NCBI GenBank assembly: GCA_053919585.1
Contig: CM132822.1
DNA: 64,000 nucleotides
DNA from: Euprymna scolopes
Taxonomy: Eukaryota
Strand: one strand, 5' to 3'
Within the stretch, counting starts at the first letter, position 1; every line of letters starts with the position of its first letter. The notes beneath the pieces were generated by a model. The model saw nothing but the letters and a program-made list of their open reading frames with translations, searched no databases and was not told the origin of the DNA. This document shows positions 1 to 36,595 of the stretch, piece by piece. Both the position numbers and the translations under genes were made by a program.

Positions 1-510
1 ACTGATTGATAATTGATCCAAAAATCCGAAATTTTCATCGTAGAATTACTAAAATGTAGAGTTCCAGGAAAAGACAGGTTTTGGATTAATGGTTGTCATT
101 ACCATGCAGGCGAAAAACTAAAAGATCTGACTTCAGCAACATGTTTAGACATTCACGGAACTGTGTGCATAGACACAAAGTAAAAATAAAAACTATACAA
201 ATAGACAAACACTCAATAAATTGCAAAAATTCAATTCATATCAGGATGCAGAATACATTCCTACATTGTTGACGTAAAGCTGGCTAAATGCAATGGACAC
301 GTTTTGAATATAAAATTGGCTCTCGTCACTATTAAGTTTCAGATGGAGATGGACCAATTAAAGCTGTTTAGCAGATATTTCATAAGCTCCTGCTGATATT
401 CCGAAAGTTTAAACTCAATGTAAGCCACAGATTCAATTATATCAGGATAGATGGAGAATACTTTCCTACAGTATTACCTGAGGGAAAGCTGGCTAAATGC
501 AAGAGAAACG
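1..510 (+). pseudogene. Decayed leucine-rich-repeat coding module
   Basis: Same family as 4625-4900 and 13716-14296; KDLTSATCLDIHG and LRESWLNA motifs. Confidence 0.45.
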
Positions 511-539
511 AAAACCTTATTAAAATGTACCCCTGTAGT

Positions 540-970
540 TCCCGCTGTCGATTCTAGGGAATTGCAGAAGTTGATTAAGAGAGCAGGACCTGAAAACCAG
601 AAAAAATGTCAGATGGAGAGTGACCCATTTTAAGACTTGTTTAGCAGATATTTGCAAGAAACCAGGCCATCTGTAAATTGGGATAAAAGTAAACCTATTC
701 CAGGAGATGCAGTTTAATCACATACAGACATTCAGCATGGTGCTTAAAAACGTGATAGACCGCAATAAATTGGTTGCGGTCTAAGCCAAATAGTGGCCTA
801 GTAACAAGTATGGGTTGTTGGAGTTCCCAAAATGCCAGAATGATCTCACGTTTCTTGATCTTACTGTCCAACGAATCGAGTATCTGAAGGATTCAGTTTG
901 ACCATTGGATGAGCTTTAGTATGGCCAGGATTGTTGCATAAATATGCAAAGTGATGCAAGTATGAAAACA
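540..970 (+). pseudogene. UGP2: UTP-glucose-1-phosphate uridylyltransferase (UDP-glucose pyrophosphorylase) N-terminal fragment
   Basis: Across frameshifts reads ELQKLIKRAGPENQKKCQME..FKDLFSRYLQETRPSVNWDKSKPIP...NKLVAV...TSMGC...RNDLTFLDLTVQRIEYLK. This matches the animal UGP N-terminus (RFLQEKGPSVDWGKI...NKLVVVKLNGGLGTSMGCKGPKS...TFLDLTVQQIEHL). Confidence 0.85.
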
Positions 971-1291
971 AATCAAGGATAGAAACAGTTTTGAGAGGCA
1001 TACCTCTGACCACCGATGCTTATTACACTAAACAAAACCGACAAGCGCCAGATACGTCAATATTTTCATAGCAATCGACTATTATGACATTGAAAATTAA
1101 ATCTTGAAACTCCTCCATATTTTGCATTCAGAGTGCTTTTGTCCTATTATGCTGTTTGTATCGGGTTTTAGAGCAAAGATCGGGTGTGATGTGAATTCCC
1201 AAACCAGTTTCCATTCCAGGTATGCGACCATTGCCTGGAAGTCACCACCACCCTTAATGCCATTCTTCATAGTGTCCGTCTGGAGAGACAC

Positions 1292-2260
1292 GATCTGTAC
1301 GATGATCTATATTTTCCCAGTATCTGACACCAACCAGGATAGGATCTGAGAGGCTCCAAGGTTCAGCGCACCAGCTCCTTTGGTGTGCTACATCTGAGCG
1401 AGCTATGATGCAGCTACCAGCATGTTGAATGACCGGTTACTTCACCCTTTCTGTGGCATTCGCCCATGCTGTTCAATATGGTTATGGACGAGGTGCGCTC
1501 TATCCAAGCTTGCATATCCAATGGGGTCAACGGAGGTGGGGGGGGGTGACGTTGGCTATGCTGATGACCTCACTCCTGTCACAGACACTGGCAGATATGT
1601 TGGTTAGCTTGGGGAAGTGAAGCTAGCTCTGGGAGGATCAAGGATGGTGATTAACTCCTCCAAATGAAGGTCACTTACTATAGTCTCCAGCAAAAAGGCA
1701 AAGCATATTCATTTGGAAGCTGCGGAGTTTGTCTGGTGCTCAACCGGTCCAAGATCTTAACCCTAAGCATTTGAGCTGCTTGGGATCAGATATAATTAGA
1801 AAGTCCTTTCCTTTCCATATCGCAAGGTGGTCCACGACTGGCTGAGCAAGATGCATTCGGCTCCATTGAAGCTGCTGCAGTTCATTTAGCTCTGGTGGGG
1901 ATATGCGATGCCCAGCTTCTGCAGTCGCTGGTCCTGGGTAACATGCACCATAACATGCTCAGGGCATTGGATGTTAATGTGAAAAAACAACGTCCAAAAA
2001 GACTTTCTGGTCGGCTTTTATGCCGCTGTCTCAGGGTTTTAGTGCAGTCTTGGAGGGGGGGGCGATTGCCTTCCTTGGCAACTTACATTTCTTTAAGACA
2101 GTAGGTACCAAACGTTATTTGCCTCTGCAATATCAGGAATTGTACATGAGGTCACCCAGAGTGTTCCATCCCAAACAACTCTGAACCACCCTGCCATGGT
2201 GAGGTGCCCTATGGTGTGTGATAAGCAGTATTAAGATGGAGGGAGGCTACGGTTTCATCT
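1292..2260 (+). mobile_element. Degenerate R2-clade non-LTR retrotransposon RT/thumb fragment
   Basis: APAPLVCYI*ASYDAATSML..GIR[QGDPL deleted]SPMLFNMVMDEV..YADDL..MVINSSK*RSLTIVSSKKAK..APLK..LLQSLVLG...LRALDVNVKK..PKDFLVGFY. The thumb pattern APLKPQQ..LDxxVR..WLxLPxD..GFFHA..GGLG is typical of R2. Confidence 0.75.
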
Positions 2261-2271
2261 TTGGATTAGTT

Positions 2272-2520
2272 TTGCCTGAAAGTATCATGCCTGTACACGA
2301 CCACCATTGTCACATTTGGGCTGGTGCATCTGCTAATAGTCTCATCCTTGGATAGAGTTCAAAAGAAAGTCATCAACCTGAAAGGTCCTGAACTGTCGTC
2401 TAGCTTCAAGCTCTGTCCCATCGACGAAATGTTGCATTTCTCTACCTGTTTTACAGGCATTTAAAATGGTGGATACTGATGAACTACACGCTCTTGTACC
2501 CCCTCTACCGAATGCACCGA
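2272..2520 (+). mobile_element. CR1 ORF2 3' fragment (also at 8862-9110 and 22953-23195; a further piece at 9230-9500)
   Basis: Aligns by eye to 29365-29570 of the intact CR1 (CHIWAGAS..LDRVQK..GPELSS.LQ.LSHRR.VA). Confidence 0.8.
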
Positions 2521-2714
2521 GATATATATATATATATATATATATTACACACACCGAGTAGAATTATATCCGGGCTGAAGAATCTACTACTTAGAATAAA
2601 AAAAGCAAAAAAAAAACAAAAAAAAACAAAATGTTAAATAATAGGACCTGCTCCATTAGCAGAGCTCCAACTCTTGTCTTATCGCTTCAATGTCTCATTT
2701 CCATATAAATGTTT

Positions 2715-3410
2715 TTGAAAAAGATGTGTAAAGGCGAAGAGGAGAAATGTTTATGGCCAGTGTATAGCGGAACAGAAAAACGCTCGCCAGGGGGCTGACA
2801 TGAAAAAAGACTAAGCTGGTGTCAAGACAAAAATACCGTAGAACAAAAAAGAACACAGACCTGAATTTATTGGACTAATCTGTTTCTCATTCATATACAG
2901 TCTGAAAAAGGTCAGAAGTTACATCAGCCAAAATGCAGTGAAAATATAATCAATTCTCATCTCCAATAGATTTAGTTTTCTTTATATTTTTGAACCTCCT
3001 CGATGGCCACTAATGTAAGACCTACACAAGCAGAATTGGAGATAAAAAGGAAGACTAGGGAAACTATCGGCGATAGGGGGTAGGTGGTTGTCGAATAAGG
3101 AGAAGTGGACCTGGTCGCACATGAATATCTTCAAAGCTTTTAACCAAAACAAACTGGCACAACCAATATATTGAGGATTTCAAGCAGCTTCAGATGTTGA
3201 GGTGTTAGAGACGGTGTAAAACCTATTATGTAAAAGTCACTGTGTGAGAGTTCCTAACAGGAACCGAAACGGCCGAGCATAACTTTCTCAAATTTCAAAG
3301 CCAGCATAAGGATGCATTGCACGTTTCACACCAAAGAATTAGCTATTAACCGACGCTTGGCAACTCATTAAGTCATTTCGAAGTTTTAAGAACTCGGCGG
3401 CCATTTTTCT
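2715..3410 (+). mobile_element. Degenerate LINE APE-endonuclease/linker fragment (also 10848-11560, 15560-16420, 26390-26670)
   Basis: The longest copy shows IFAQEHF and RARGR motifs, then WHNDILR..SEVDEVFEAWCKIYY.KVTVRVPNR, resembling the EN-to-RT linker of L2/CR1-group ORF2. Confidence 0.45.
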
Positions 3411-3854
3411 CAAGTATGAAAACAAGGTAAAAATGGATTTATTACTATACATATTGATGTCTGTCGCCTTAAATTAAAACGTAAAAGCAATCAGGAATTT
3501 ATCGTTTGAATCTTAAAACTTTGTATCTTTATCATATCCTCATCCACAAAAACAACCATCATAGAAACCCAATAATAAACGTAACAGCATGGATGTATAT
3601 ATGCATCAATGTTGTAAAATGCTGGTAGTGGTTTTTTAAATTTATAAAAAATTCCTTGCTGTCTTTTTACTCTAAAATTCCATTAAACAGTAAAATAAAA
3701 AGCAAATCTTGAATGAAGCCGAACCCACCTTAGATTAGAATTTTAGGCTGAATATTATTATTTTTTTTTTTTTACACATGCGTCATACCTGTATTTACAA
3801 AACAATCACAGACGCCAAGTAATTAAAGCGAAAATATCAATTAATCTAAGTTTT

Positions 3855-4900
3855 ACACCATGAAAATTACTAATCACGTTCAAAGTAGTTAATGATTCCT
3901 AAAAAATCTGAATCTTCATAGAAAGAATCGCTTAATGAATGCAGAATTCCAGGAACAGGAAACTCCTTCAAAGATCTGACTTCAACATGAGTAAAAGACT
4001 TTAGACTAAATTTCTATTAGACAAACACTTTCAATAAGCACCCGCTGAAATTCTGAACAAATGGTTGAACTGTCATAGTAAGCGACCGATTCAATATCAC
4101 GAGATTCAGAGTGCATAACTACAGCATTTCCTGAAGGAAAGCTAGCCAAACCCAAAAGAAACGTTTTGAATAAGAAACTGGTTCTCGTTACTATTAAATC
4201 CCAGATGGAGATGGACCAATTAAAGCTGTTCAGTAGATATTTTAATGAGTTTCTGCTGAAATTCTGAAAGTTTAAACTGTCATGGTAAGCAACAGATTCA
4301 ATATATATCAGGATAGATACGTATACAGTCCTACAGCGTTTCCTGGCGGAAAGATGCCTAAATGCAAAAGAAACGTTGTGAATGAGAAATTGGTTCTCAT
4401 CATTATTGAATTCCGGATGAAGATGGACCAATTAAAAGCTGTTTAGCAGATATTTGCAAGAAACCGGGCCATCTGTAAAATGGAATAAAATCAAAACAAC
4501 TGCCAGATGCGATTAAAACTTATCCAGACATTCAGCAAGAGATTTCAAAAACGTCAAAGAACTCAACAAATTGGTTGCAGTAAAGTTGAATTGTGGCCTA
4601 CAAAGGAGTACGGGTTTTGGAAACGTTTTGAAACAGAAACCGATTCTCGTCAAAATTATGCTGGTGAAGAACTCCTTCAAAAGATCTGAAATCCTCAACA
4701 TGTGCAGACATAAGGAAACGTTTGCATCCAAAAGAATTTTTTCACTCGTTCTTAGAATAGCACTTCATTAGACAACCATTTTAAATATGTTACCCCTGAT
4801 TTTCTAAATGTGTGAAGGTTGAATAATGTCCTGAACACAGACTTGATGAGAATGGATGCGAAGTGTATCCCTAATAATTTAGCAAATTATTCTATAATAC
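3855..4900 (+). pseudogene. Decayed typical-type LRR modules interleaved with UGP fragments
   Basis: My consensus across copies reads approximately GENSFKDLTSSTCLDIQGN-LQRIQVKDFT..LLDNHF.(I/V)PAEIL..LNCHG..IQYI, fitting LxxLxLxxNxLxxIxxxxFxxL. Several frameshifts are required. Confidence 0.55.
4417..4620 (+). pseudogene. UGP2: UGP fragment (divergent class 2)
   Basis: LFSRYLQETGPSVKWNKIK...NKLVAVKLNCGLQRSTGF. Confidence 0.75.
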
Positions 4901-5029
4901 GAAATCTTCCAAGAATTCCTGGAGATTGTACACTTCATACAGCGCATACGTAAAGTGCTTCTTAAATACATATTAATGACCTTGATTTGTCTCCGTAAAA
5001 AAAAAAAAAACACAAATCTTCAATCATGA

Positions 5030-5215
5030 ATTTGAAATCTACCAAAGCTATCCAGCTAAAATCTATCTCTTCAAATACGTAACTGCCTCCTTGGACATCG
5101 AAAACCTAGTCACTAACGTTCCGATAATTATTTTACGGTCATTTTAGACTACAAAAACGATGTAATACTTCCTCCAGTCAGAACCCAACACCTTGAAAAC
5201 TTGTTAAAATGCATC
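5030..5215 (+). mobile_element. Penelope-like RT fragment fused to UGP (also 13215-13400, 17430-17615, 19060-19245)
   Basis: KST...SKYITASLDVENLVTNV...VYKNDVILPP..QHL.NLLKCTT, similar to the PLE RT motif ASLDVESLFTNVP. Confidence 0.7.
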
Positions 5216-5239
5216 ACTCTAGTTCGCTGTGTCAACGGC

Positions 5240-5530
5240 ACAGGGAATTGCAAAAGTTGGTTGAAACAGTAGCACTCGAAAATCAGAAATGTCATGAAGA
5301 TTGACCAATTTAAATAGCTGTTTAACAGATATTTGCAAGAAACCGGGCCACATGTAAATTTGGATGAAATCAAACCAATACCAAAGGACGTGATTAAACC
5401 ACATGCAGACATTTGGCAAAGATCTCAAAAATGTGAAAGAGTTGAAGAAATTGGTTGTGAAGCTGAATGGTGACCTAGGAACAAGTATGGGATGTCGGGG
5501 TCCCAAAAGTGCCATCAGTCTTGAATGATC
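5240..5530 (+). pseudogene. UGP2: UGP fragment (class 3)
   Basis: ELQKLVETVA...YLQETGPHVNLDEIKPIPKDVIKPHADI...KKLVVKLNGDLGTSMGCRGPKSAI. Confidence 0.85.
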
Positions 5531-5534
5531 TATT

Positions 5535-6085
5535 AAATCCGAAAACGTCATAGGAAGAATCACTGAATGAATGCAGAGTTCCAGGGAAACACGTTTTGGA
5601 TAAGTAGTTGTCAATACCATGCGTGTTAATACCCAAAGATCTGACTTCAACATGTTTAGTCATACAAAGAAATGACTGCATAAAATACAAGTAAAAGACT
5701 TTACACTTTCTAGTAGACAACCACTTTCAATAAGTTCCTGAGTTGAAAAGGTCAAACTGTCTTGGTAAGCAACTGATTCAATATATATCAGGATAGATGC
5801 GGAATATATTCCTACAGCGTTTCCTTAAGGAAAGCTGGCTAAATGGAATGGAAACTTTTTGCATAATAAACTGGTTCTCGTTACTATTAAATCCCAGATG
5901 GAGATGAGCCAATTAAAGCTGTTTAGTAGATAATTAAAACTCCTGCTGAAATTCTGGAAGTTTAAACTCATGGTAAGACGCCGATTCGATGTATATCAGG
6001 ATAGATGGAGAATACATTCCTAGAGGTGCCTGAGAGAATGCTTGCTAAATGTATAAGAAGCTGGTTCTCGTCATTATTGAATTCC
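5535..6085 (+). pseudogene. Decayed LRR module
   Basis: Paralog of 13716-14296 and 17935-18310. Confidence 0.5.
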
Positions 6086-6410
6086 AGATGGAGATGAACT
6101 AATTAAAAATGCTCTTGCAGATATTTGCAAGAAACTGGGCCATCTGTAAAACGGAATAAAATCAAATAAAAAGGTGATTAAATCCTAATCTGACATTCAG
6201 CAAAAATCTCAAATACGTCAGAGACCTCAAATTGGTTGCCTGCAAGCTGAATGGTGGCTTAGGAACAAATATGGATGTCGGGGTCCCAAAAAGTGCCATC
6301 CGTCTTGAAACATCTCATTTCTTGATATCACCGTCCAATAAATTGAGTATTTGAAGAGTCCAGATTGTCCATTCAGCTTTAGTATGGCCAAGATTGATAT
6401 ATATAAAACC
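6085..6410 (+). pseudogene. UGP2: UGP fragment (class 4)
   Basis: RYLQETGPSVKRNKIK...KLVACKLNGGLGTN...GPK...FLDITVQ*IEYLK. Confidence 0.8.
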
Positions 6411-7129
6411 GATAATTGAGATTTTAAAAATATTTTAGTATCCACATTATAAGTGGATTGTCTTAATATAGATCATTAAAATGTACAATGAATCAAAGAA
6501 ATTGTCAATGTGAATAGATTGCAGATTTATATTGTACTAAATTCGAGAATAATTTTATACCATGAAAATGACTAATCACTTTCGAACTGATTGATAATTA
6601 ATCCAAAAATCCGAAATTTTCATTGTAGAATTACTAAAATGTAGAGTTCCAGGAAAAGACAGGTTTTGGATAAATGGTTGTCATTACCATGCAGGCGAAA
6701 AACTCAAAAGATCTGACTTCAGCAACATGTTTAGACATTCACGGAACTGTGTGCATAGACACAAAGTAAAAATAAAAACTATACTAATAGACAAACACTC
6801 AATAAATTGCAAAAATTCAATTCATATTAGGATGCAGAATACATTCCTACATTGTTGACGTAAAGCTGGCTAAATGCAATGGACACGTTTTGAATATAAA
6901 ATTGGCTCTCGTCACTATTAAGTTTCAGATTGAGATGGACCAATTAAAAAAGCTGTTTAGCAGATATTTCATAAGCTCCTGCTGATATTCCGAAAGTTTA
7001 AACTCAAGGTAAGCCACAGATTCAATTATATCAGGATAGATGGAGAATACTTTCCTACAGTATTACCTGAGGGAAAGCTGGCTAAATGCAAGAGAAACGA
7101 AAACCTTATTAAAATGTACCCCTGTAGTT

Positions 7130-7560
7130 CCCGCTGTCGATTCTAGGGAATTGCAGAAGTTGATTAAGAGAGCAGGACCTGAAAACCAGAAAAAATGTCA
7201 GATGGAGAGTGACCAATTTTAAGACTTGTTTAGCAGATATTTGCAAGAAACTAGGCCATCTGTAAATTGGGATAAAAGTAAACCTATTCCAGGAGATGCG
7301 ATTTAATCACATACAGACATTCAGCATGGTGCTTAAAAACGTGATAACCACAACCAATTTATTGCGGTCTAAGCCAAATAGTGGCCTAGTAACAAGTATG
7401 GGTTGTTGGAGTTCCCAAAATGCCAGAATGATCTCACGTTTCATGATCTTACTGTCCAACGAATTGAGTATCTGAAGGATTCAGTTTAACCATTGGATGA
7501 GCTTTAGTATGGCCAGGATTGTTGCATAAATATGCAAAGTGATGCAAGTATGAAAACAAA
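7130..7560 (+). pseudogene. UGP2: UGP fragment (copy of 540-970)
   Basis: Near-identical to 540-970. Confidence 0.85.
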
Positions 7561-7879
7561 TGAAGGATAGAAACAGTTTTGAGAGGCATACCTCTGACCA
7601 CCGATGCTTATTACACTAAACAAAACCGACAAGCGCCAGATACGTCAATATTTTCATAGCAATCGACTATTATGACATTGAAAATTAAATCTTGAAACTC
7701 CTCCATATTTTGCATTCAGAGTGCTTTTGTCCTATTATGCTGTTTGTATCGGGTTTTAGAGCAAAGATCGGCTGTGATGTGAATTCCCAAACCAGTTTCC
7801 ATTCCAGGTATGCGACCATTGCCTGGAAGTCACCACCACCCTTAATGCCATTCTTCATAGTGTCCGTCTGGAGAGACAC

Positions 7880-8850
7880 GATCTGTACGATGATCTATAT
7901 TTTCCCAGTATCTGACACCAACCAGGATAGGATCTGAGAGGCTCCAAGGTTCAGCGCACCAGCTCCTTTGGTGTGCTACATCTGAGCGAGCTATGATGCA
8001 GCTACCAGCATGTTGAATGACCGGTTACTTCACCCTTTCTGTGGCATTCGCCCATGCTGTTCAACATGGTTATGGACGAGGTGCGCTCTATCCAAGCTTG
8101 CATATCCAATGGGGTCAACGGAGGTGGGGGGTGACGTTGGCTATGCTGATGACCTCACTCCTGTCCCAGACACTGGCAGATATGTGGGTTAGCTTGGGGA
8201 AGTGAAGCTAGCTCTGGGAGGATCAAGGATGGTGATTAACTCCTCCAAATGAAGGTCACTTACTATAGTCTCCAGCAAAAAGGCAAAGCATATTCATTTG
8301 GAAGCTGCGGAGTTTGTCTGGTGCTCAACCGGTCCAAGATCTTAACCCTAAGTATTTGAGCTGCTTGGGATCAGATATAATTAGAAAGTCCTTTCCTTTC
8401 CATATTGCAAGGTGGTCCACGACTGGCTGAGCAAGATGCATTCGGCTCCATTGAAGCTGCTGCAGTTCATTTAGCTCTGGTGGGGATATGCGATGCCCGG
8501 CTTCTGCAGTCGCTGGTCCTGGGTAACATGCACCATAACATGCTCAGGGCATTGGATGTTAATGTGAAAAAACAACGTCCAAAAAGACTTTCTGGTCGGC
8601 TTTTATCATGCCGCTGTCTCAGGGTTTTAGTGCAGTCTTGGAGGGGGGGGGGCGATTGCCGTCCTTGGCAACTTAGATTTCTTTAAGACAGTAGGTACCA
8701 AACGTTATTTGCCTCTGCAATATCAGGAATTGTACATGAGGTCACCCAGAGTGTTACATCCCGAACAACTCTGAACCGCCCTGCCATGGTGAGGTGCCAG
8801 ATGGTGTGTGATAAGCAGTATTAAGATGGAGGGAGGCTACGGTTTCATCA
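7880..8850 (+). mobile_element. R2-clade RT fragment (unit 2 copy)
   Basis: Near-identical to 1292-2260; GYADDL in ORF 8010-8192; FYHAAV retained. Confidence 0.75.
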
Positions 8851-9110
8851 TTGGATTAGTTTTGCCTGAAAGTATCATGCCTGTACACGATCACCATTGT
8901 CACATTTGGGCTGGTGCATCTGCTAATAGTCTCATCCTTGGATAGAGTTCAAAAGAAAGTCATCAACCTGAAAGGTCCTGAACTGTCGTCAAGCTTCAAG
9001 CTCTGTCCCATCGACGAAATGTTGCATTTCTCTACCTATTTTACAGGCATTTAAAATGGTAGATACTCTGATGAACAACACGCTCTTGTATCCCCTCTAC
9101 CGAATGCATC

Positions 9111-9157
<47 letters not shown>

Positions 9158-10339
9158 ATTACACACTGAGTAGAATTATATCCGGGCTGAAGAATCTACT
9201 ACTTAGAATAAAAAAAAAAAGAAACACTTAATAGGACCTGCTCCATTAGCAGAGATCCAACTCTTGTCTTATCGCTTCAATGTCTCATTTCCATATATTT
9301 TTTTTTTACATGAATTTAAATAGAAGGGCCTGAACTTCCGGCACTTGTGTCCAAACATACTCCCAACTAATCCAACAAGCAAAAGGCAACCCATTCACTG
9401 TTGAGGACACCAGAAAACATTCTTCGGACTGAAATTTCCTCACTATTTTGCACTTTCCTGACTACTCACCCGCAAGAGTTTAAATGTGAACATCTTTCTG
9501 CTCAACTGTTATACACAATCCCAAACAGTAACCTTTGCATTTCATTTATGACTTGTTTAGAATAACAGAGCATAAGGAGTGTCTAAACCCATCTAGGAGG
9601 GACCCAATGTATAGGAATCAAATCACTCGCTCCAAAGTATAAAATATGGTTCCTGCAAATACTTATTTTTATGAAGATATAGGAAAACTGTCACAGATTC
9701 AACAACCCAAGTAAAAGGCACATACATGTTTTTCAGTTCTCTCCCTTAGAATGGCATATCGAAATCTTTTTCAATAAGCTCTAAATTTTACTGGTTAAAA
9801 ACTAGTGTTAATTTACCTACAAGATGTCTAAGAAAAGTGGTTCCAAACCAATTTGTCATGGCATAAGTGTCATGAAGATACAAATCTGTCATAACCGGAG
9901 TGGATTGTATTAATGCAAAATTTTAAAATAACAGCCACTAAAAAAAAATTGTCGATGTAAATAGATTTCCTATTTACTTTGTAAATTCGAAGTTAACCGC
10001 ATCCACCACTAAAACAGGGCAAAAAAAAAAAAAAAAAAAAAAAAAAGGAGTGCGTGGATCCCTCCTAGATGAGCCTAACGCATATGAATCAAATTACTCG
10101 CCAAAAATGAAGTCTAAAGAAATAACGTTCCTTTGCATACTTTTTTTACTCATGAAAAAATTATAATTAATAATTATCAGGGATTCAAGAACCCAAGTAA
10201 AAAACCAGACCTGTGTTCCCACCGGCTCTTTCCTTTAGAAAGGCACTATATTAGGAAGCTTTTTAATAGGCTCCACCTGTAGCCCAAAATAGATTTTACT
10301 GGAAAAAAATTTACTCAAGTTGGAGTACCAATTATAAAA

Positions 10340-10520
10340 ATACAAACTCGAAAGGGGATCATTTCTAAAATGCCTACACTCGTGTATCATATAGCAAACG
10401 CATTACACAACCTTATATATAAAAGATACTACCACCAACGCAATACATCGATAACCAAACTCCCAATAAACATGACTGCCTCCTAGACACCAAAACCTCC
10501 AAACATTCTGATAAAAACCC
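10340..10520 (+). mobile_element. Penelope-like RT fragment
   Basis: IISKMPTLVYHIANALHNLI...TASxD, similar to PLE RPIISQIPTPTYxIAKxL. Confidence 0.55.
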
Positions 10521-11906
10521 CATGAAAATAAAGTCAGACAATGCTACCCCGTTCACCCCCCACCTCCAGTTATAAATAATACTGATAATATGCCCCCCTT
10601 AAATTAAAACGCAAAAGCAATCAGGAATTTCACGTTTGAATCTTAAAACTTTGTATCTTTATATCCTCATTCACAAAAACAGCCTTCATAGAAACCCAAT
10701 AATAAACGTAACCGCATGGATGGATACATGTATCAATGTTGTAAAAAAAAAAAAAAAAAAAAAAAAGTACCAGCATTTTTACATTTGCAAAAATTCCTGT
10801 CCTTTTACTCTAATTCCATTAAACAGTAAAAGTAAAAATCATTTAGTTTGAAAAAGATGTGTAAAGGCGAAGAGAAGAAATGTCTATGGCCAGTGTATAG
10901 CGGAACAGAAAAACGCTCGCCAGGGGGCTGACATGTGACCTCGTAGTGGCTGAAAAAAAAAAAAAACAAAAAAAAAAACAGACTAAGCTGGTGTCAAGAC
11001 AAAAATACCGTAGAACAAAAAAGAACACATTGGACGATTGTTTCTCATTCATATACAGTCTGAAAACTGTCAGAAGTTACATCGGCCAAAATGCTGTGAA
11101 AATATAATCAATTCTCATCTCCAATAGATTTAGTTTTCTTTATACTTTTGAACCTCCCTGATAGACACTAATGTAAGACCTATTCAAGCAGAATTGGAGA
11201 TAAAAAAGGAAGACTAGGGAAACTATCGGAGATGGGGGGTAGGTGGTTGTCGAATGGGGTTGAAGTGGACCTGGTCGCACATGAATATCTTCAAAGCTTT
11301 TAACCAAAACAAACTGGCACAAATATATTGAGGATTTCAAGCAGCTTCAGATGTTGAGGTGTTGGAGACTGTAAAACCTATTATGTAAAAGCCACTGTGT
11401 GAGAGTTCCTAACAGGAACCGAAACGGCCGAGCATAACTTTCGCAAATTTCAAAGCCAGCATAAGGATGCATTGCACGTTTCACACCAAAGAATTAGCTA
11501 TTAACCGACGCTTGGCAATTCATTAAGTCATTTCGAAATTTTAAGAACTCGGCGGCCATTTTCCTCAAGCATGAAAACAAGGTAAAAATGAATTTATTAC
11601 TACATATTGATGTCTGTCGCCTTAAATTAAAACGTAAAAGCAATCAGGAATTTATCGTTTGAATCTTAAAACTTTGTATCTTTATCATATCCTCATCCAC
11701 AAAAACAACCATCATAGAAACCCAATAATAAACGTAACAGCATGGATGTATATATGCATCAATGTTGTAAAATGCTGGTAGTGGTGTTTTTAAATTTATA
11801 AAAAATTCCTTGCTGTCTTTTTACTATAAAATTCCATTAAACAGTAAAATTAAAAAGCAAATCTTGAATGAAGCAGAACCCACAATAGATTAGGAATTTT
11901 TAGCTG

Positions 11907-11943
<37 letters not shown>

Positions 11944-12575
11944 GCGTTATACCTGTATTTACAAAACAATCACAGACGCCAAGTAATTAAAGCGAAACTA
12001 TCAATTAATCTAAGTTTTACACCATGAAAATTACTAATCACGTTCAAAGTAGTTAATGATTCCTAAAAATCTGAATCTTCATAGAAAGAATCGCTTAATG
12101 AATGCAGAATTCCAGGAACAGGAAACTCCTTCAAAGATCTGACTTCAACATGAGTAAAAGACTTTAGACTAACTTTCTATTAGACAACCACTTTCAATAA
12201 GCACCCGCTGAAATTCTGAACAAATGGTTGAACTGTCATAGTAAGCGACCGATTCAATATCACGAGATGCAGAGTGCATAACTACAGCATTTCCTGAAGG
12301 AAAGCTAGCCAAACCCAAAAGAAACGTTTTGAATGAGAAACTGGTTCTCGTTACTATTAAATCCCAGATGGAGATGGACCAATTAACGCTGTTCAGTAGA
12401 TATTTTAATGAGTTTCTGCTGAAATTCTGAAAATAAACTGTCATGGTAAGCAACAGATTCAATATATATCAGGATAGATACGTATAGTCCTACAGCGTTT
12501 CCTGGCGGAAATATGCCTAAATGCAAAAGAAACGTTTTAAATGAGAAATTGGTTCTCATCATTCTTGAATTCCGG

Positions 12576-17607: not shown

Positions 17608-17932
17608 ATGCACCACTCCAGTTCGCTGTGTCCACGATACAAGAAATTGCAAAAGTTGGTTGAAACAGTAGCACCCGAAAATAAGAAACGTCATATGAAG
17701 ATGGACCAATTTAAAGAGCTGTTTAGCAGATATTTGCAAGAAACCGGGCCACATGTAAATTATGATAAAATTAAACCAATACGAAAGGATGTGATTAAAT
17801 CACATGCAGACATTTGGCAAAGATCTCAAAAATGTGAAAGAGTTGAAGAAATTGGTTGTGAAGCTGAATGGTGGCCTGAGAACAAGTATGGGATCTCGGG
17901 GTCCCAAAAGTGCCATCAGTCTTGAATGATCT
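17608..17932 (+). pseudogene. UGP2: Best-preserved UGP N-terminal fragment
   Basis: ORF 17608-17925: KKLQKLVETVAPENKKRHMKMDQFKELFSRYLQETGPHVNYDKIKPIRKDVIKSHADI. A shifted frame continues KKLVVKLNGGLRTSMGSRGPKSAI. Confidence 0.9.
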
Positions 17933-17934
17933 CT

Positions 17935-18900
17935 TAAATCCGAAATCGTCATAGGAAGAATCACTAAATTAATGCAGAGTTCCAAGAAAACACGTTTTGG
18001 ATAAGTGGTTGTCAATACCATGCGGGTGAATACCCAAAGATCTGACTTCCTCAACATGTTTAGTCATACAAAAGAAATGACGGCAAAGAATACAAGTAAA
18101 AGAATTTACAGTTTTATAGTAGACAACCACTTTTCAATAAGTTCCTGTGGAAATTCTGAAAGTTGAAAAGGTCAAACTGTCTTGTAAGCAACTGAGTCAA
18201 TATATATCAGGATAGATGCGGAATATATTCCTACAGCGTTTCCTTAAGGAAAGCTGGCTAAATGCAACGGAAACGTTTTTAATAAGAAACTGGTTCTCGT
18301 TACAATTAAATCCCAGATGGAGATGGACCAATTAAAGCTGTTTAGTAGATATTTTAATGAGTTCCTGCTGAAATTCTGAAAGTTTAAACTGTCATGTTAA
18401 GTAACTGATTCAATATATATAAGGATTAGATGAGGAATACATTCCTACAGCTTTTCCTGACGGAATCATGCCTAAATGCAAAAGAAACGTTTTGAATGAG
18501 AAATCACTGAAATCAACATAAGAAATACAAGGAAAGAATTTTTTCACTAGTTCTTAGAATAGCACTTCATACAACCATTCTAAATAAGTTACCCCTGATT
18601 TTCTAAGTGTGCAAAGGTTGAATAAAGTCCTGAATACAGATTTTATGAGCATGGACGTGAAATGTATCCCTAATAATAATCTATCAAAAATTTCTATAAT
18701 ACGAAATGTACGAATTAATATTTATACATAAATTTTACAACGTTGGGTTGTATGCTCGTAAATTATAACCAAATAATACGTGGTTGTAATTATCAAATAA
18801 CCCTTACGCAACAAGATGAGCATTGTATAAAACGGATACGATTTTCTGCATACGACTTCAATTTAAGTGATTTAAAGTAATTATCTTCCAAGAACTCCGG
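17935..18900 (+). pseudogene. Decayed LRR module with possible LRRCT start
   Basis: Same family; 'ttatcaaataacccttac' (LSNNPY) near 18790 resembles the LxxNPF C-terminal cap. Confidence 0.45.
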
Positions 18901-19271
18901 GAAATCGTACCCTTCATACAGCGTATACCTAAAGTGCTTCTTACTATACATATATTAATGACCTCTTGATTTCTCTCCGTAAAAAAAAAAAAAAAAAAAA
19001 AAAAAAACTGAAACTGAAATCTTCAATGAAGCAGAACCAATCATGAATTTTACGTTTGAATAAAATCTACTAGAGCTATCACGCTATAATCAATCTCTTC
19101 AAATACAGAACTGTCTCTCTGGACATCGGAAACTTAATCACTAATTTCTGATAATTATTTTTATGGTCTTATTTAGTCTACAAAACTATGCGATACTTCC
19201 TCTAGTCAGAACCCAACACCTCGAAAACTTGTTAAAATACACCACTCAAGTTCGCTGTGTCCACGATAAAG

Positions 19272-19558
19272 GAAATTGCAAAAGTTGGTTGAAACACTAG
19301 CACCCAAATATAAAAATGTCAGATGAAGATGGACCAATTTGAAGAGCTGTTTAGCAGATATTTGTAAGCAACTGGGCCACATGTAAATTTGGATGAAATC
19401 AAACCAATACCAAAGGTTGTGATTAAACCACATGTAGGCATTTGGCAAAGATCTCAAAAATGGGAAAGAGCTGAATAAATTGGTTGTGAAGCTGAATGGT
19501 GGCCTCGGAACAAGTATGGGATCGGGGTCCCAAAAGTGCCATCCGTCTTGAATGATCT
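19272..19558 (+). pseudogene. UGP2: UGP fragment (class 3)
   Basis: Paralog of 17640-17932; contains KLVVKLNGGLGTSMG. Confidence 0.8.
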
Positions 19559-19713
19559 CTAAAAATCCGAAATATTCAAAAAACGAACTTTCTTTCTATG
19601 ACTAAGTCCATATTATAAAAAGGAGGGGACTATATAAAATGAAATATACAATGAGTAAAAGTAATTGTCAATATAAATGTACCACAAAATTGTAAAATAA
19701 TTTCGTTTGATGA

Positions 19714-19750
<37 letters not shown>

Positions 19751-20276
19751 GTCTAGGTTTTACACCATGAAAATTACTAATCACGTTCAAACTGGTGGAT
19801 AATTCCTTCAAAAATCCGAAATCGTCATAGAAAGACTCACTAAATGAATGCAGAGTTCCAGGGAAACACGTTTTGGATAAGTAGTTGTCAATACCATGCG
19901 TGTGAATACCCAAAGATCTGACTTCAACATGTTTAGTCATCCAAAGAAATGACTGCATAGAATACAAGTAAGACTTTACACCAGTTTTCTAGTAGACAAC
20001 CACTTTCAATAAATTCCTGCGGAAATTCTGAAAGTTGAAAAGGTCAAACTGTCTTGGTAAGCAACTGATTCAATATATATCAGGATAGATGCGGAATATA
20101 TTCCTACAGCGTTTCCTTAAGGAAAGCTGGCTAAATGCAACGAAAACGTTTTTAAGAAACTGGTTCTCGTTACTATTAAATCCCAGATGGAGATGGACCA
20201 ACTAAAGCTGTTTAGTAGAAATGTTACACTCCTGCTGAAATTCTAGAAGTTTTAACTGTCATTGTAAGACGCTGAG

Positions 20277-20312
<36 letters not shown>

Positions 20313-20617
20313 AAAGATTTTGAAACATCAGTTGGAAATATTTACTGATTTGAAACCACCTGAACAGTGAGAATTTTTTTTCTTATCACTGGTATTCCAA
20401 CTGAAACCAATTTCCCTCTTTCCTCATTCGTTTTCTTAGTTTTTAATTTATCAATCTGACGTTTCCTCTTTGAGGGTCAGACGATAAGGCCTTAAGGAAA
20501 TTTTAACAATTTCACCTGCCCGTTTTTTTTTTTTTTTTTTTGGTTTCTTTGGTCTTTTTGATTTAAATTATGTTTCCTCTGAAATTTCTCCTTCCATTTT
20601 GCTGTGCCAAGAATTTA

Positions 20618-20659
<42 letters not shown>

Positions 20660-20759
20660 GATAGATGGAGAATACATTCCTAGAGAGTTTCCTGATAGAA
20701 AACTGGATAAATGCAAGAGAATCATTTTGCATAAGAAACTGGTTCTCGTCATTGAATTC

Positions 20760-21110
20760 CAGATGGAGATGGACCAATTAAAAAAGCTGTGAAGCAGATA
20801 TTTGCAAGAGACTGGTCCATCTGTAAAACGGAATAAAATCAAACAAATAAAAGATGTGTTAAATCCTAATCTGACATTCAGCAAAAATCTCAGATGTCAG
20901 ACCTCAAATTGGTTGTCTGCAAGCTGAATGGTGACTTAGGAACAAATATGGATGTCGGGGTCCCAAACTGCCATCCGTCTTGAAAGATCTCATTTCTTGA
21001 GCTCACCGTCCAATAAATTGAGTATTTGAAGAGTCCAGATTGACCATTGGTTGAGCTTTAGTACGGCCAAGATAGTTGCATAAATACACCAAGTGATACA
21101 AGTATAAAAC
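20760..21110 (+). pseudogene. UGP2: UGP fragment (class 4)
   Basis: Paralog of 14297-14630. Confidence 0.8.
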
Positions 21111-21407
21111 CGATAATTGAGATTTAAAAAATATTTTAGTATCCACATAAGTGGATTATCTTAATATAGATCATTAAAATAAACAAGGAATCAAAGAAAT
21201 TGTCAGTGTGAATAGATTGCAGATTCATATTGTACTAAATTCTAGAATAATTTTATACCATGAAAATGACTGATCACGTTCAAACTGATGGATAATTCAT
21301 CCAAAAATCCAATTTTCATTGTAGAAAGAATTACTAAACAAATGTAGAGTTCCAGGAAAAGACATGTTTTGGATTAATGGTTGAAAACGGGCAAAAAAAC
21401 TCAGATT

Positions 21408-21670
21408 ATAGGGAATTGCGACAGTTGATTAAAAGGACCTGAAAAAAAAAAAAAAAAAAAAAAAAAATAGATGTCAGATTGACCAATTTTAAGACCGGTT
21501 TAGCAGATATTTGCAAGAAACCACGGCGTGTAACAAGTATAGGTTGTTGGAGTTCCAAAAATGAATGATCTCGCGTTTCTTGATCTTACTGTCCAACGAA
21601 TGATTCAGTTTGACCATTGTATGGCCAGGATAGTTGCATAACTATGCAAAGTGATGCAAGTATAAAAACA
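21408..21670 (+). pseudogene. UGP2: Internally deleted UGP fragment (class 1)
   Basis: Paralog of 540-970 with deletions; retains FLDLTVQR. Confidence 0.65.
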
Positions 21671-21956
21671 AATGAAGCATCGAAACACTAGTGCTTATTA
21701 CACAAATAAACCTGACATGGATCGATATTTTCATTGCATTCGACTATTACAACATTGAATGCAACACCAGGGTGACTTTCAAGATTTAATTTTCAGAGTG
21801 CTTCTTTACTATTATGCTGTTTGCATCATGTTTTATAGCAAAGATCGGCTGTGATGTGTAAATTCCCAAACAAGTTTACATTCCAGGTATGCGGCCATTG
21901 CCTGGAAGTCACCACCACCCTTAATGTGATTTTACATAGTGTGTCTGGGGACACAG

Positions 21957-22950
21957 GATCTGTACGATGATCAATATATCAAGAATTTGACACCAATCAG
22001 GATATGCTCTGAGTGGCTCCAAGCTTCGGCGCACCAGCTCCTTTGGTGCGCTACATTTGAGTGAGCTATGATGCAGCGAACAGCACGTTGAATGACCGTT
22101 TTTTCACTTTCGCTCGTGCTGTTCAATATCCGAGCTTGCGTAGCCAATGGGTTAATGGACGTTGGCTATGCTGATGACCTCACTTCTCTCCAAAACTGTG
22201 GCAGCAGTGAAGCTAGCTCTTGCAAGGTCAAGGATGGTGATTAACTGCCAAATGAAGGTCACTTACTATAGTCTCTAGCAAAAAGGCAAAATATTCTCAT
22301 TTGGAAGTTGCGGAGTTTGTCTGGTGCTCAACCGGTCCAAGATCTTAACCATAAGCATTTGAGCTGCTTGGGATAAGATTCAATTGGAAAGTCCTCCTTT
22401 CCTTTTTACATCGCAAGGTGGTCCACGACTTGCTGAGCAAGATGCATTCGGCTCCATTGAATCTGCAGCAGTTCATTTAGCTCTGGTGAGGATATGTGAC
22501 GCCAGACTTCTGCAGTCGCTGGTCCTGGGCAACATGCACCATAACATGCTCAGGGCATTGGATGTTAATGTGAAAAAACGTCTGCAGGTGGCCGAGGCTC
22601 CCAAAAGACTTTCTGGTCGACTTTTATCATGCCGCTGTCTCAGAATTTTAGTGCAGTCTTGGAGGGGTCGGGGGTGATTGCCTTCCTTGGCAACTTCAAT
22701 TTCTTTAACAAGACAATAGGTACCAAAAGATGTTTGCCTCTGCAATATCAGGAATTTTACATGAGGTCACCCAGAGTACCGTCCTGAACTACTCGGAACT
22801 GCCCTGCCATGGTGAGGAGCCAGATGGCGTGATAAGCAGCAGTAAGATGGAGGGAGGCCACGGTTTCATTTTTGAGTCGGTCTCGCTCTGGCATACTGTA
22901 CAAAAGCATCTGATTATCAATGAACACTGGCTTTACGATGCTATAAAGAG
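21957..22950 (+). mobile_element. R2-clade RT fragment (unit 4 copy)
   Basis: Diverged paralog; retains YADDL and the extra segment read as VCRWPRLPKDFLV. Confidence 0.7.
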
Positions 22951-23542
22951 TTTTGCCTGAAAGTATCCCCTGCCTCTACACGACCACCATTGTCACATTT
23001 GGGCTGGTGCATCTGCTAATAGTCTCATCTTTGGACAAAGTTCAAAAGGTCAACCTGAAAGGTCCTGAACCGTCGTCTAAGCTTCAAGCTTTGTCCCATC
23101 GACGAAATGTATTTCTCTTCCTGTTTTACAGGCATTTAAAATGGTGGATGCTCTGATGAACTACAAGCTCTTGTAGCCCCTCTATAGAAGTGCATCCGAG
23201 ATTCTACCTAGATATCTACTCCTGGAGTAGAATTAGATCTAGGTTGAAGAATCTACCACTTAAAAAAAAAACAAAAAAAAAAGACGAAGTAGAAATAATA
23301 GGACCTGCTCCATTAGCAGAGCTCCAACTCCTGTCCCATCGCTGTAATGTCACATTCCATGTATTTAAATAGAAGGGAGTTACTTAACCCCATGAAAATA
23401 AAGGCAAACAATGCTACCCGTTCACTCCCTCCCCCACAGCTCCTAGAAAAGTACACTAAACCGCACGAGTTCCCTTTGGACGACCATACAGTGAATTGAA
23501 GTTGGTTTAAACAGCATCACCTGAAATGAGAAAATACTCATA

Positions 23543-24609
23543 CAGTCCTGGTCAAAATCATAAGACCACTTAAAGATTTTCAGTGGGATTGAGGTCCGGT
23601 GAACATGCTGGATGATCTAACAATTCTATATTATTTGAAGGAAAGTATTCTTGTGCTTGCCGAAGTGTGTATCGCAGCGTTGTCTTGCTGAAAAATCATT
23701 TCTTCCACACAGACATGGACCTTCAGTCCTGATAGAAGCATTTTCAAGCATTGAAATGTACTTAAATGATGTTTCTTCCACTACTTGCAACTTTAGGGTC
23801 CCAGCTGATGAGAAAGCACCCCCAGATCATTAAACCCTCCTCCACTATGCCGAGTTGAAAAAGTCTCTTTGGGCAAATTTTTATCATGCCAATAGTGTCG
23901 AAACCCATCTGGACCATCCAGATTAAACTTTTTCTCAGAGAAAATTACATTTTCTCGCTTCTCTTCATCCCAAGTCTGGTGTTTGGCGGCATATTTAAGT
24001 CGGTTAGTTTTGTGCTGTTCAAGAAGACGTGGTTTCTGCAGTCGCTTTAAATGATTGAAACCCTTCATTTTCAGATGCCTTCTGATGGTTTTAGGACCAC
24101 ATTCTACTGCTGTTTGGCTTTTCAATCGACTTGAGCTCATACTGGAGTTTTTTTTAAACTTCTGATATGGCGATCCAGTGATGGGTTATATTTTTTGGTC
24201 GAGGTGGATATTTTGTGCCCATACTGATCTGGATTTCTTAAATCCAGATAACTGTTTTGCTACTATTCACTTCGTTTGCAATGAATCTATGGGGGATTCC
24301 ATCCCAATTAAGCTGAAAGATCCTCTCAAACTGATAATGGTTTCACTTTTGTTATTTATAATTTAGTAAGCTGTTTTTAATTACTAACAAGTTGCTTTTA
24401 GTAACATAGAAAGCTTTTCGTATGTATTTTTCAAAACTAGCCGATTATATGAAAGTTGTCTTATCATTTTGACCAAGTGAAAATGTTTTAAAAAAATAAT
24501 TAGATCACAGTTAAGGTTTCGAATGAAGCGGATATCGTTTTTTTTACATCATTTTCCCTTTTGGCTATGGTTTCTACCATTTGTTCGATTTAAAAATTCG
24601 ATAATATGC
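23543..24609 (-). mobile_element. Internally deleted Tc3-like (Tc1/mariner DD34E) transposon
   Basis: TA|CAGTCCTGGTCAAAATCATAAGACCACTT end; minus-strand [30 protein letters not shown] and SPDLNPTEN; same family as 55039-56525. Confidence 0.9.
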
Positions 24610-25019
24610 TATAGAAAAACCTATACATATTGATATCTGTCGCCTTTAACTAAAACGCAAAAGCAATCAAGAATTTCACGTTTGAATCTTAAAACTTTGT
24701 ATCTTTATCATATCCTAATCCACAAAAACAACCATCATAGAAACCCAATAAACATAACCGCATGAATGAATACATGTATCAATGTTGTAAAACCACTACC
24801 AGCATTTTTACATTTGTAAAAATTCTTGTCTTTTTACTCCAAAATTCCATTAAACAGTAAAATTAAAAAGCAAATCTTGAATGAAGCAGAACCCAATATG
24901 AATTAGGTATTTTAAGCCGAAATTTTTTTTTACATGCCTCATCTGTATTTACAAAACTATCATAGAAGCCAAGTAATCCAAGAGAAAATATCAATTAAGT
25001 TCGATAATAGTTAATGATT

Positions 25020-25429
25020 CCTAAAAATCTGAAATCGTCATAGAATCGTCACTTAATGAATGCAGAGTTCCAAGCAAAGGAAACTCCTTCAAAAGATCCG
25101 ACTTCCTCAACATGTTTAGACATACAAGGACATGTCTGCAAAGAATACGAGTAAAAGACTTTACTAAATTTCTATTAGACAACTTTCAATAAGCACCCGC
25201 TGAAATTCTGGAAAAAAAAAGAAAAAAAGTTGAACTGTCATATTAAGCGACTGATTCAATCAGTCAAGAGATGCAGAGTGCATAACTACAGCATTTCCTG
25301 AAGGAAAGCACGCCAAACGCAAAAGAAACGTTTTTTAATAACAAACGGGTTCTCGTTACTATTAAATCCCAGATGGAGATGGACCATTTAAAGCTGTTCA
25401 GTAGATATTTTAATGAGTTTCTGCAAATG

Positions 25430-25485
<56 letters not shown>

Positions 25486-25990
25486 GATAGATGCGAAATA
25501 CATTCCCACAGCTTTTCCTGACGGAAAGATGCCTAAATGCAAAAGAAATGAGAAATTGGTTCTCGTCACTATTATGCTGGTGAGAAACTCTTTCAAAAGA
25601 TCTGAAATCAACATGTGCAGACATACAAGGAAACGTTTGATTAAAAAAGAATTTTTTCAACCGTTCTTAGAATAGAACTTCATTAGACAACCATTTTAAA
25701 TAAGTTGCCACTGATTTTCTAAATGTGAAGGTTTAATAATGTCCTGAATACAGACTTTATGAGCATCGACCTGGAATGTATTCCTAATAATTTAGGAAAA
25801 TATTCGAAATGTATGAATATTTATACATAAATTTTCTGACTGGGCAGCGTTAGGTGATATGTTAATAAATTATAACCTAATACATAGTCGTAATTATCAA
25901 ATAACTCTTACGCAACAAGATAAGCGTTATATTAAACGGATACGGTTTTCTGTATATGACTTCAATTCAAATGATTTAAAGTATTGATCT
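25020..25990 (+). pseudogene. Decayed LRR module (unit 4)
   Basis: NSF.DPTSSTCLDIQG..LQRIRVKDFT; paralog of 3855-4900. Confidence 0.5.
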
Positions 25991-26788
25991 TCCAAGAATT
26001 CCTGGAGATCATACCCTTCATACAGCGCATCCCTAAAGTGCTTAATATATATATATATATATATGACGTCTTGAGATATAATATATACCTACTCATGTGG
26101 CTTAATCTACCACTTAGAATAAAAATCAATTTAAAGAGTTGTTTATCAGATATTAAAAAAAAAAAAAAAAACGAAAAACAAAAAAAAACTGGGCCACCTT
26201 TAAATTTGGGTAAATCAAACCAAAGGATGTGATTAAACCACATGCAGACATGTGGCAAAGTTCCAGGAAAACACGTTTTGGATAAGTGGTTGTCAATACC
26301 ATGCGGGTGAATACCCAAAGATCCGACTTCCTCAGCATGAATGAAGCAGAACCCACCATGAATTAGGAATTTTAAGCTGAAAATCGTCTAAGACTAAGGG
26401 AACTATCGGAGATGGGGGAAGTGTAGGTGGTTGTCGAACGAGGACAAGTGGACCTGGTCGCACATGAATATCTTCAAAGCTTTCAGCCAACACAGAGGCT
26501 GGCACAACGATATATTGAGGATTGCAGCTTCAGAAGTTGACGAGGTGTTTGAGGCATGGTGTAAAATCTATTATATAAAAGTCACTGTAAGAGTTCCTAA
26601 TAGGAACCGAAACGGCCGAGCATAACTCTTGCGAATTTCAAACGGCCGAGCATAACTCTTGCAAATTTCATATCTGGCAGTGTTCGTAAATGTTTTCTAC
26701 AGAAATTCATCCGATAAGTATCGAAAAAAGAAAAATCCGATCTTAAGAAATATTTTATATTAAAGCAGCCAAGGTAAATAAGTCATTT

Positions 26789-36560: not shown

Positions 36561-36595
<35 letters not shown>

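What the first reader, a model, noticed from the sequence alone, without database searches (positions are those of the whole stretch)
1..26670. Strand-polarised patchwork array of host-gene and retroelement fragments (candidate small-RNA source locus or template-switch chimera)
Seen: every ancestral module I can orient reads on the + strand (UGP, LRR, R2 RT, CR1, LINE endonuclease, Penelope RT). The only minus-strand element is a Tc3-like insertion confined to unit 4. Six independent families sharing one orientation has a chance of about 1/32 if random, and the second half of the window is mixed. Established: uni-strand piRNA clusters such as flamenco accumulate co-oriented TE fragments, and R2 RT makes end-to-end template jumps that fuse RNAs in sense orientation. 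Inference: the array is either a locus whose minus-strand transcript would be antisense to several TEs plus two host gene families, or an amplified multi-template cDNA chimera.
Basis: partly seen in the sequence, partly recalled or inferred. Interest (0 to 1): 0.7.

Follow-up and report, generated by a model that had tools for sequence, protein, structure and literature searches.

The report
Amplified pseudogene array under antisense transcription
In a cephalopod genome, a spliced scrap of a sugar-metabolism gene was copied 56 times in tandem inside a 165-kb stretch that is likely transcribed from the opposite strand without coding for protein, which would make it a candidate source of transposon-silencing small RNAs.

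Summary
The array is real but is the last 27 kb of a 93-kb head-to-tail duplication carrying 56 frame-broken pieces of a spliced UGP mRNA. Modules were added stepwise, so the array is not one cDNA chimera. Yet a larger polarity exists. Over about 165 kb, including the 'mixed' second half, long A runs outnumber T runs 47:6 (18:1 outside the array), the mirror of 7 of 7 control genes, and a SINE/LINE family that inserts sense in genes (21:1) lies 11:0 on minus. A calibrated scan finds no coding exon. Other transposons lie 18:3 antisense to this inferred transcript (genes 41:40), including two independent R2 pieces; with the SINE/LINE family the tally is 18:14, not significant. Poly(A) RNA barely covers the array; no small-RNA data were available. 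Best reading: a non-coding minus-strand unit, likely piRNA-cluster-like (0.45); an ordinary giant intron or lncRNA is nearly as likely.

The parts
1..26566 (+). Right-hand 26.6 kb of a 93-kb head-to-tail array (starts at window coordinate about -66,970; G000:C40:64.599-64.693 Mb)
556..888 (+). Processed UGP fragment, exon 2 end to 8 nt of exon 5 (example; 18 merged pieces in the window, 56 in the array)
882..931 (-). Ferlin C2-exon piece, antisense, fused to the UGP piece (also 6349-6394, 7470-7519, 14545-14595, 21024-21074)
1144..2225 (+). R2 reverse-transcriptase fragment (also 7732-8815, 21809-22917)
2307..2503 (+). CR1-type LINE 3' piece (also 8897-9095, 22990-23175)
3223..3297 (+). 5' end of a non-autonomous Helitron (also at 11378, 16236)
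3299..3391 (-). IS1595/Merlin-like transposase piece, antisense to its ORF (also 11454-11546, 16311-16402); family name is a lead
13253..13405 (+). Penelope-like RT piece lying just before the UGP piece (also 5072-5223, 17470-17622, 19179-19251)
20039..20185 (.).
23572..24609 (-). Tc1/Tc3 transposon
26567..30143 (+). Complete non-autonomous Helitron (TC start, hairpin and CTAG end) that closes the array
26903..29892 (+). Young CR1-type LINE ORF2 with one frameshift, poly(A) tail and target-site duplication, nested in the Helitron
32247..32502 (-). SINE of the family sharing its 3' end with the LINE-I element (also 41357-41611, 52311-52660, 62698-62950); marks transcription direction
1..64000 (-). 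Window portion of the inferred non-coding minus-strand transcription unit (about -75 kb to +91 kb in window coordinates)

Best explanation
The array is a 93-kb head-to-tail duplication of a spliced UGP mRNA fragment and its neighbours, built stepwise, and it lies in a 165-kb domain with the sequence footprint of genes read on the minus strand but no detectable coding exon, which likely works as a uni-strand piRNA-type precursor. Shown: the UGP piece is a retro-copy of the intron-bearing C9 gene; the seed reads Penelope-like RT (+), UGP (+), ferlin (-), CR1 (+); later duplications kept orientation and carried along later insertions (R2, Helitron end, Merlin-like piece); every long piece is frame-broken. 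Inferred (about 0.85): long-term germline transcription of the minus strand across the whole domain. Inferred (about 0.5 given that): the transcript is processed into small RNAs and selection has favoured antisense transposon insertions; the amplified antisense UGP is then most likely a passenger rather than a selected silencer.
For: Spliced junctions in 22, 43 and 17 of 56 pieces, no C9 intron sequence; 26 of 26 long pieces group with the C9 parent at 100/100 and 0 of 26 keep frame. Direct repeats only; stepwise module map. A>=15: T>=15 on + is 47:6 in the domain and 18:1 outside the array, against 3:4 and 6:6 in 270 and 203 kb of flank; 7 of 7 control genes, two of them on minus, have T on the sense strand, 127:45. 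Several A runs are expansions inside UGP and CR1 coding pieces, not tails; human genes show the same poly(T) polarity (PMC7181645, passages). SINE/LINE-I family: 21 sense: 1 antisense in genes, 11 minus: 0 plus in the domain. Exon scan: 30 hits at score 20 or more in 450 kb of held-out genes, 3 on their antisense strands, 0 in 220 kb of domain minus strand; no hit over a Pfam cut-off among 242 minus-strand ORFs. Other transposons 18 antisense: 3 sense after collapsing duplicates, versus 41:40 in genes (p 0.005) and 49:45 in flanks (p 0.006). Two independent R2 pieces, one 90% identical to the rDNA element, both antisense; R2 is 149-fold enriched in one class of oyster piRNA clusters (PMC6128900, passages). 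Run X5 holds 31 unspliced contigs over 17 of 30 bins, word share 0.20 against 0.018 expected from uniform DNA.
Against: No small-RNA data were seen. With the SINE/LINE-I family counted the tally is 18:14 (p 0.60; versus genes p 0.15), and setting that family aside was decided after seeing the data; a young intact LINE-I lies sense to the inferred transcript. CR1 alone is about 9:3, p 0.15. Three poly(A) runs gave 81, 254 and 35 reads on 1-20000, of which 81, 251 and 34 fit only partly, mostly on the CR1 piece, so strand was not measured. X5 is only guessed to be RNA and no silent stretch was laid with it. CpG o/e outside the array is 0.80, between flanks (0.90-0.93) and genes (0.53-0.67). The left flank also leans 4:1 minus for the SINE family. 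The exon scan missed 3 of 20 known exons outright and scored only 6 of 20 at 20 or more, so a gene with few weak exons is not excluded. No 26-mer of the array matches UGP mRNA perfectly, 12 have one mismatch. Control genes are all housekeeping-type and only seven.
Confidence: 0.45

Rival explanations
1. The same array sits in an ordinary giant intron or long non-coding RNA gene on the minus strand; the antisense excess comes from selection against sense poly(A) and splice signals, and no small RNAs are made.
For: Every transcription footprint is shared with ordinary genes; near absence from poly(A) reads and low unspliced cover in X5 fit intron RNA; overall tally 18:14 is unbiased; intronic orientation bias is general in human (PMC10030826, passages); reversed pseudogenes in primate clusters are mostly by-products (PMC6461890, abstract).
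Against: In seven control genes of this genome the same families are not antisense-biased, 41:40; no exon reached the score that even the sparsest control would give about three times in 165 kb (Poisson 0.04); run polarity is stronger than in genes (p 0.025); two R2 pieces outside rDNA.
Confidence: 0.38
2. No transcription: a replication-direction or repair bias in this domain produced the A-run polarity and biased insertions, and satellite-type methylation of the array lowered CpG.
For: Transcription strand was not measured; CpG outside the array is only mildly low (0.80); octopus satellites are relatively more methylated (PMC9476566, passages).
Against: Three markers (run polarity, run density, SINE/LINE-I orientation) move together exactly as in 7 of 7 genes and vanish in 470 kb of flank; X5 cover is 11-fold over uniform DNA.
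Confidence: 0.11
3. The unit is one multi-template cDNA chimera made by R2 or another RT (or a Helitron cargo) and then amplified.
For: The UGP piece is an internal mRNA fragment with no tail, bounded by a sense Penelope-like RT piece and a 4-nt microhomology to ferlin; tripartite LINE chimeras exist (PMC2104539, abstract). This remains possible for the 0.6-kb seed only.
Against: UGP-ferlin is sense-antisense; R2 appears only from -15.7 kb, the Helitron end from -6.5 kb, the Merlin-like piece from +3.3 kb; LINE-I and CR1 have their own target-site duplications; DNA transposon pieces are included; no CTAG-to-TC Helitron junctions.
Confidence: 0.06

Closest known systems
Uni-strand piRNA clusters (Drosophila flamenco, recalled; mollusc clusters, PMC6128900 passages)
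   Same: Long non-coding domain with one inferred direction; most transposon families antisense (18:3); R2 pieces present.
   Different: One abundant SINE/LINE family is entirely sense; overall 18:14; small RNAs not shown; no Gypsy enrichment looked for.
Reversed pseudogenes in mammalian pachytene piRNA clusters (PMC6461890, abstract)
   Same: Processed host-gene fragment antisense to the inferred transcript, decaying without sign of constraint.
   Different: Here one 350-nt internal fragment is amplified 56 times in a patchwork, in a mollusc.
Su(Ste) repeats of Drosophila (recalled, not from a call)
   Same: Tandem, chimeric, decayed gene copies with transposon inserts read antisense.
   Different: Copies are 70-86% identical to the parent with no perfect 26-mer; the parent is a single intact enzyme gene, not an amplified selfish gene.
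Bipartite and tripartite LINE template-switch chimeras (PMC2104539, abstract)
   Same: Seed joins an mRNA piece directly to retroelement pieces.
   Different: Contains a sense-antisense junction, lacks tail and flanking duplications, and grew stepwise.
Complex tandem segmental duplication / pseudogene array (general knowledge)
   Same: Direct head-to-tail units 4-30% diverged, nested insertions carried along.
   Different: Nothing essential; the added feature is the polarised domain around it.

Membership tests
Uni-strand piRNA cluster | Produces 24-32-nt 1U-biased small RNAs from one strand | not testable with these tools
   No small-RNA run was offered.
Uni-strand piRNA cluster | Long single-strand precursor transcript | tested here: inconclusive
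   Indirect footprints point to minus; reads too few to give strand.
Uni-strand piRNA cluster | Transposon pieces mostly antisense to the transcript | tested here: inconclusive
   18:3 without, 18:14 with the SINE/LINE-I family.
Uni-strand piRNA cluster | Non-coding | tested here: met
   0 exons at score 20 or more in 220 kb versus 30 in 450 kb of genes; no Pfam hit over cut-off; no exon-like cover in 40 kb laid.
Uni-strand piRNA cluster | Transposon density above genome background | not tested
   Only a small home-made library was available.
Processed pseudogene | Introns precisely absent | tested here: met
   Three junctions spanned in 22, 43, 17 of 56 pieces.
Processed pseudogene | Loss of reading frame | tested here: met
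   0 of 26 long pieces without a frameshifting gap.
Processed pseudogene | 3' end of mRNA, poly(A) tail and target-site duplication | tested here: not met
   Only coding nt about 86-432 of exons 2-5 present; an internal fragment.
RT template-switch chimera (whole unit) | All components fused sense to sense in one event | tested here: not met
   Antisense ferlin and Merlin-like pieces; stepwise accretion.
Non-autonomous Helitron (26567-30143) | 5' TC, 3' hairpin and CTAG, insertion between A and T | tested here: met
   Ends shared with four dispersed copies; the hallmarks themselves are recalled.
Helitron concatemer (array) | Head-to-tail CTAG-to-TC junctions between units | tested here: not met
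   Only truncated 5' ends in the last 33 kb.
R2 element | RT homology to an intact element in 28S rDNA | tested here: met
R2 element | Inserted in its 28S target | tested here: not met
   No rRNA match in the window; fragments only.

The most novel reading that the evidence does not exclude
A cephalopod uni-strand piRNA cluster, recognisable from mutation footprints alone, that has amplified an antisense UGP fragment 56-fold and uses it, Su(Ste)-like, to tune the intron-bearing UGP paralog while also silencing R2, CR1 and Penelope elements.
Probability: 0.12. Interest if true: 0.8.

Novelty: new variant of a known kind. Interest (0 to 1): 0.48.

Why it matters
If small RNAs confirm it, this is a defined piRNA source locus in a group where my ten literature searches listed no such locus, and one whose growth can be read unit by unit. 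Independently, long T runs and one SINE/LINE family mark transcription direction in 7 of 7 genes here, a cheap way to list long non-coding units in a 5.9-Gb genome without RNA data. If it is only an intron, it is a curiosity: a large neutral pseudogene array.

Tried and rejected
Laying four RNA runs on 30200-50100 gave repeat cross-mapping only; 15 of 90 joints were shown, none exon-like. About 3 reads of X9 fall in the bin where X5 peaks (5594-5990): too few. A large host gene on minus was my first reading (70%); eye, Pfam, Atlas and three exon scans found no exon. Own-genome searches of three 'unique' stretches returned only repeat debris. My guess that subunit X is antisense ferlin exon failed; so did the guess that it is an upstream UGP exon (320 kb of C9). 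C5 hits of the UDPGP family are a different gene. Helitron concatemer rejected. My recollection that the mollusc piRNA paper describes tandem gene-fragment repeats was not borne out ('tandem' 0 occurrences). Earlier scan findings: none. Assembly artefact rejected: units differ by 4-30% and four large contig sets of one study hold 48-57% of the words. Supplements of the papers were not read.
Full report
Setting. The window is G000:C40:64,666,001-64,730,000 of a 5.9-Gb genome. The nearest named relatives of a UGP protein from this genome are octopod (80%), so the host is a coleoid cephalopod. Coordinates below are window coordinates; negative values lie upstream. I read 664 kb around the window and seven control genes.

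The array. Self-alignment shows nested direct repeats only: the minus-strand count is zero in all but one of 388 bins. The array runs from about -66,970 to 26,566, so the finding covers its last 27 kb. It holds 56 UGP-derived pieces, 56 on +. Their parent is the intron-bearing UGP gene on C9, not the two intact intronless copies on C10: 26 of 26 long pieces group with the C9 gene at 100/100 (30 shorter pieces left out). The pieces span the exon 2/3, 3/4 and 4/5 junctions in 22, 43 and 17 of 56 cases, where C9 has introns of 4.5, 17.5 and 1.9 kb, and no C9 intron sequence other than repeats occurs. They cover only about nt 86-432 of exons 2-5, are 70-86% identical to the parent, and 0 of 26 keep frame. 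So the seed is an internal fragment of a retro-copied mRNA, decaying neutrally.

Modules. LRR and LINE endonuclease were not found (a whole six-frame Pfam scan covered 18001-30000 only, the rest was scanned module by module). The subunit that reads like them occurs 48-50 times and nowhere else searched. On minus: the Tc1/Tc3 copy; a 50-bp piece directly behind UGP that is the antisense of an exon of an intact ferlin gene on C8 (otoferlin E 2.5e-5; mollusc myoferlin/dysferlin; about 28 exons; 23 of 24 hits minus); and a piece antisense to an IS1595/Merlin-like ORF (Atlas 0.89-0.91, a lead; alignments). That makes 5 plus: 3 minus, p 0.73.

How it grew. The module map (81% of 1-26670 assigned) shows a simple unit at the far left (Penelope-like, UGP, ferlin, CR1), with subunit X joining from -63 kb, R2 from -15.7 kb, the Helitron end from -6.5 kb and the Merlin-like piece from +3.3 kb. 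A full-length LINE with intact ORFs and RNase H lies on minus at -14.2 to -8.1 kb inside a UGP piece, with a target-site duplication of about 14 bp; the CR1 at 26.9-29.9 kb has its own of about 11 bp inside a complete Helitron. This is ordinary insertion followed by direct duplication (unequal exchange inferred), not one cDNA. Only the seed could be a template-switch product, and its UGP-ferlin junction is sense-antisense over a 4-nt microhomology, which RNA-to-RNA jumps between sense templates do not give.

The larger polarity. Runs of 15 or more A outnumber T runs 47:6 on + between -75 and +91 kb, and 18:1 in the unduplicated part 30,150-91,000 (p 8e-5); flanks give 3:4 and 6:6 at a five- to twelve-fold lower density. 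Several runs are expansions inside UGP and CR1 coding pieces. In 7 of 7 control genes, five on + and two on minus, T runs lie on the sense strand, 127:45; the same polarity is reported for human genes (PMC7181645, abstract and passages). A SINE family sharing both ends with the LINE above lies sense in those genes 21:1 and on minus in the domain 11:0, the five array copies having different flanks. CpG o/e is 0.65 in the array, 0.80 after it, 0.90-0.93 in flanks and 0.53-0.67 in genes; octopus methylation is on bodies of steadily expressed genes (PMC9476566, passages). Together these point to long-term germline transcription of the minus strand over about 165 kb. This is inferred, not measured.

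Is it a gene? An exon finder trained on ferlin and UGP gave 30 hits at score 20 or more on the sense strand of 450 kb of held-out genes, 3 on their antisense strands and 0 on 220 kb of the domain's minus strand; it scored 6 of 20 known exons at that level and missed 3. None of 242 minus-strand ORFs passed a Pfam cut-off (26 more, where only the LINE did). Poly(A) runs showed no exon-like cover on 1-20000 or 30200-50100. A typical multi-exon coding gene is unlikely; a giant intron with weak end exons or a lncRNA is not excluded.

Is it cluster-like? With one method for all regions (tblastn plus Helitron 3' motif) and six CR1 and four R2 duplicates each collapsed to one, transposons other than the SINE/LINE-I family lie 18 antisense: 3 sense to the inferred transcript, against 41:40 in genes and 49:45 in flanks (p 0.005, 0.006). 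Two independent R2 pieces are antisense, one 90% identical to the rDNA element at +77.5 kb; R2 is 149-fold enriched in one class of oyster clusters (PMC6128900, passages). Against: with that family the tally is 18:14 (not significant), its exclusion is post hoc though motivated by the controls, and an intact LINE lies sense. Short-method additions cut both ways (three more CR1 and one Penelope piece antisense; one more CR1 and the Merlin-like piece sense). Run X5, guessed to be RNA, holds 31 unspliced contigs over 17 of 30 bins at 11 times the share expected from uniform DNA; its nature and strand are unknown. A minus transcript would offer 0 perfect and 12 one-mismatch 26-mers against UGP mRNA, 2 against R2 and 17 against CR1: weak targeting, as found for most reversed pseudogenes in primate clusters (PMC6461890, abstract).

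Verdict. Observation partly confirmed; reasoning wrong, direction of the guess partly right. The array itself is a neutral, stepwise tandem amplification. The domain around it is the finding: a likely non-coding minus-strand unit, piRNA-cluster-like at 0.45, plain intron or lncRNA at 0.38, untranscribed at 0.11, single chimera at 0.06. It is not filed as a piRNA cluster, since the defining small RNAs could not be tested. Interest 0.48.

Noticed in passing
L026:5840 to L027:1650 (window coordinates -14160 to -8350), minus: Young intact LINE with RNase H whose 5' region starts with the same head as an abundant SINE and whose 3' end is the SINE's tail; the SINE may be an internal-deletion derivative.
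   Followed up: partly
Seven control genes on C5, C8, C9, C20, C32, C44, C45: This SINE/LINE family inserts almost only in the sense orientation of host genes (21:1), opposite to the usual intronic bias; a usable marker of transcription direction.
   Followed up: partly
Control genes versus 470 kb of flank: Mononucleotide runs of 15 or more are 3-20 times denser in gene bodies than in intergenic DNA of this genome and T-rich on the sense strand.
   Followed up: partly
L001 and L002 (C10:100.98 Mb and 111.85 Mb): Two intact intronless UGP genes; the named octopod UGP proteins share their N-terminus, so the intronless type may be an old coleoid retrogene beside the intron-bearing C9 gene.
   Followed up: no
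window 44349-58999: A second, smaller set of direct duplications (about 75-81% identical) of repeat debris in the same domain.
   Followed up: partly
L029:3455-3679 (window coordinate 77455-77679), plus: 225-bp piece of the R2 5' end, 90% identical to the rDNA element, far from rDNA.
   Followed up: partly
L024, window coordinates -34600 to -34000: A 15-bp stretch of a UGP piece expanded into about 38 perfect tandem copies.
   Followed up: no
L013, window coordinates -149500 to -144170: 5.3-kb satellite with a period near 100 bp, outside the polarised domain.
   Followed up: no
G000:C46:86.2-87.8 Mb: R2 copies spaced about 60 kb apart in two opposite blocks, presumably the rDNA locus.
   Followed up: no
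G000:C223, C904, C185, C340, C553: Small contigs with long intronless tRNA-synthetase ORFs, probably bacterial contigs in the assembly.
   Followed up: no
window 5594-5990: Depth peak (42.5) of contig set X5, with about three reads of X9 in the same bin.
   Followed up: no
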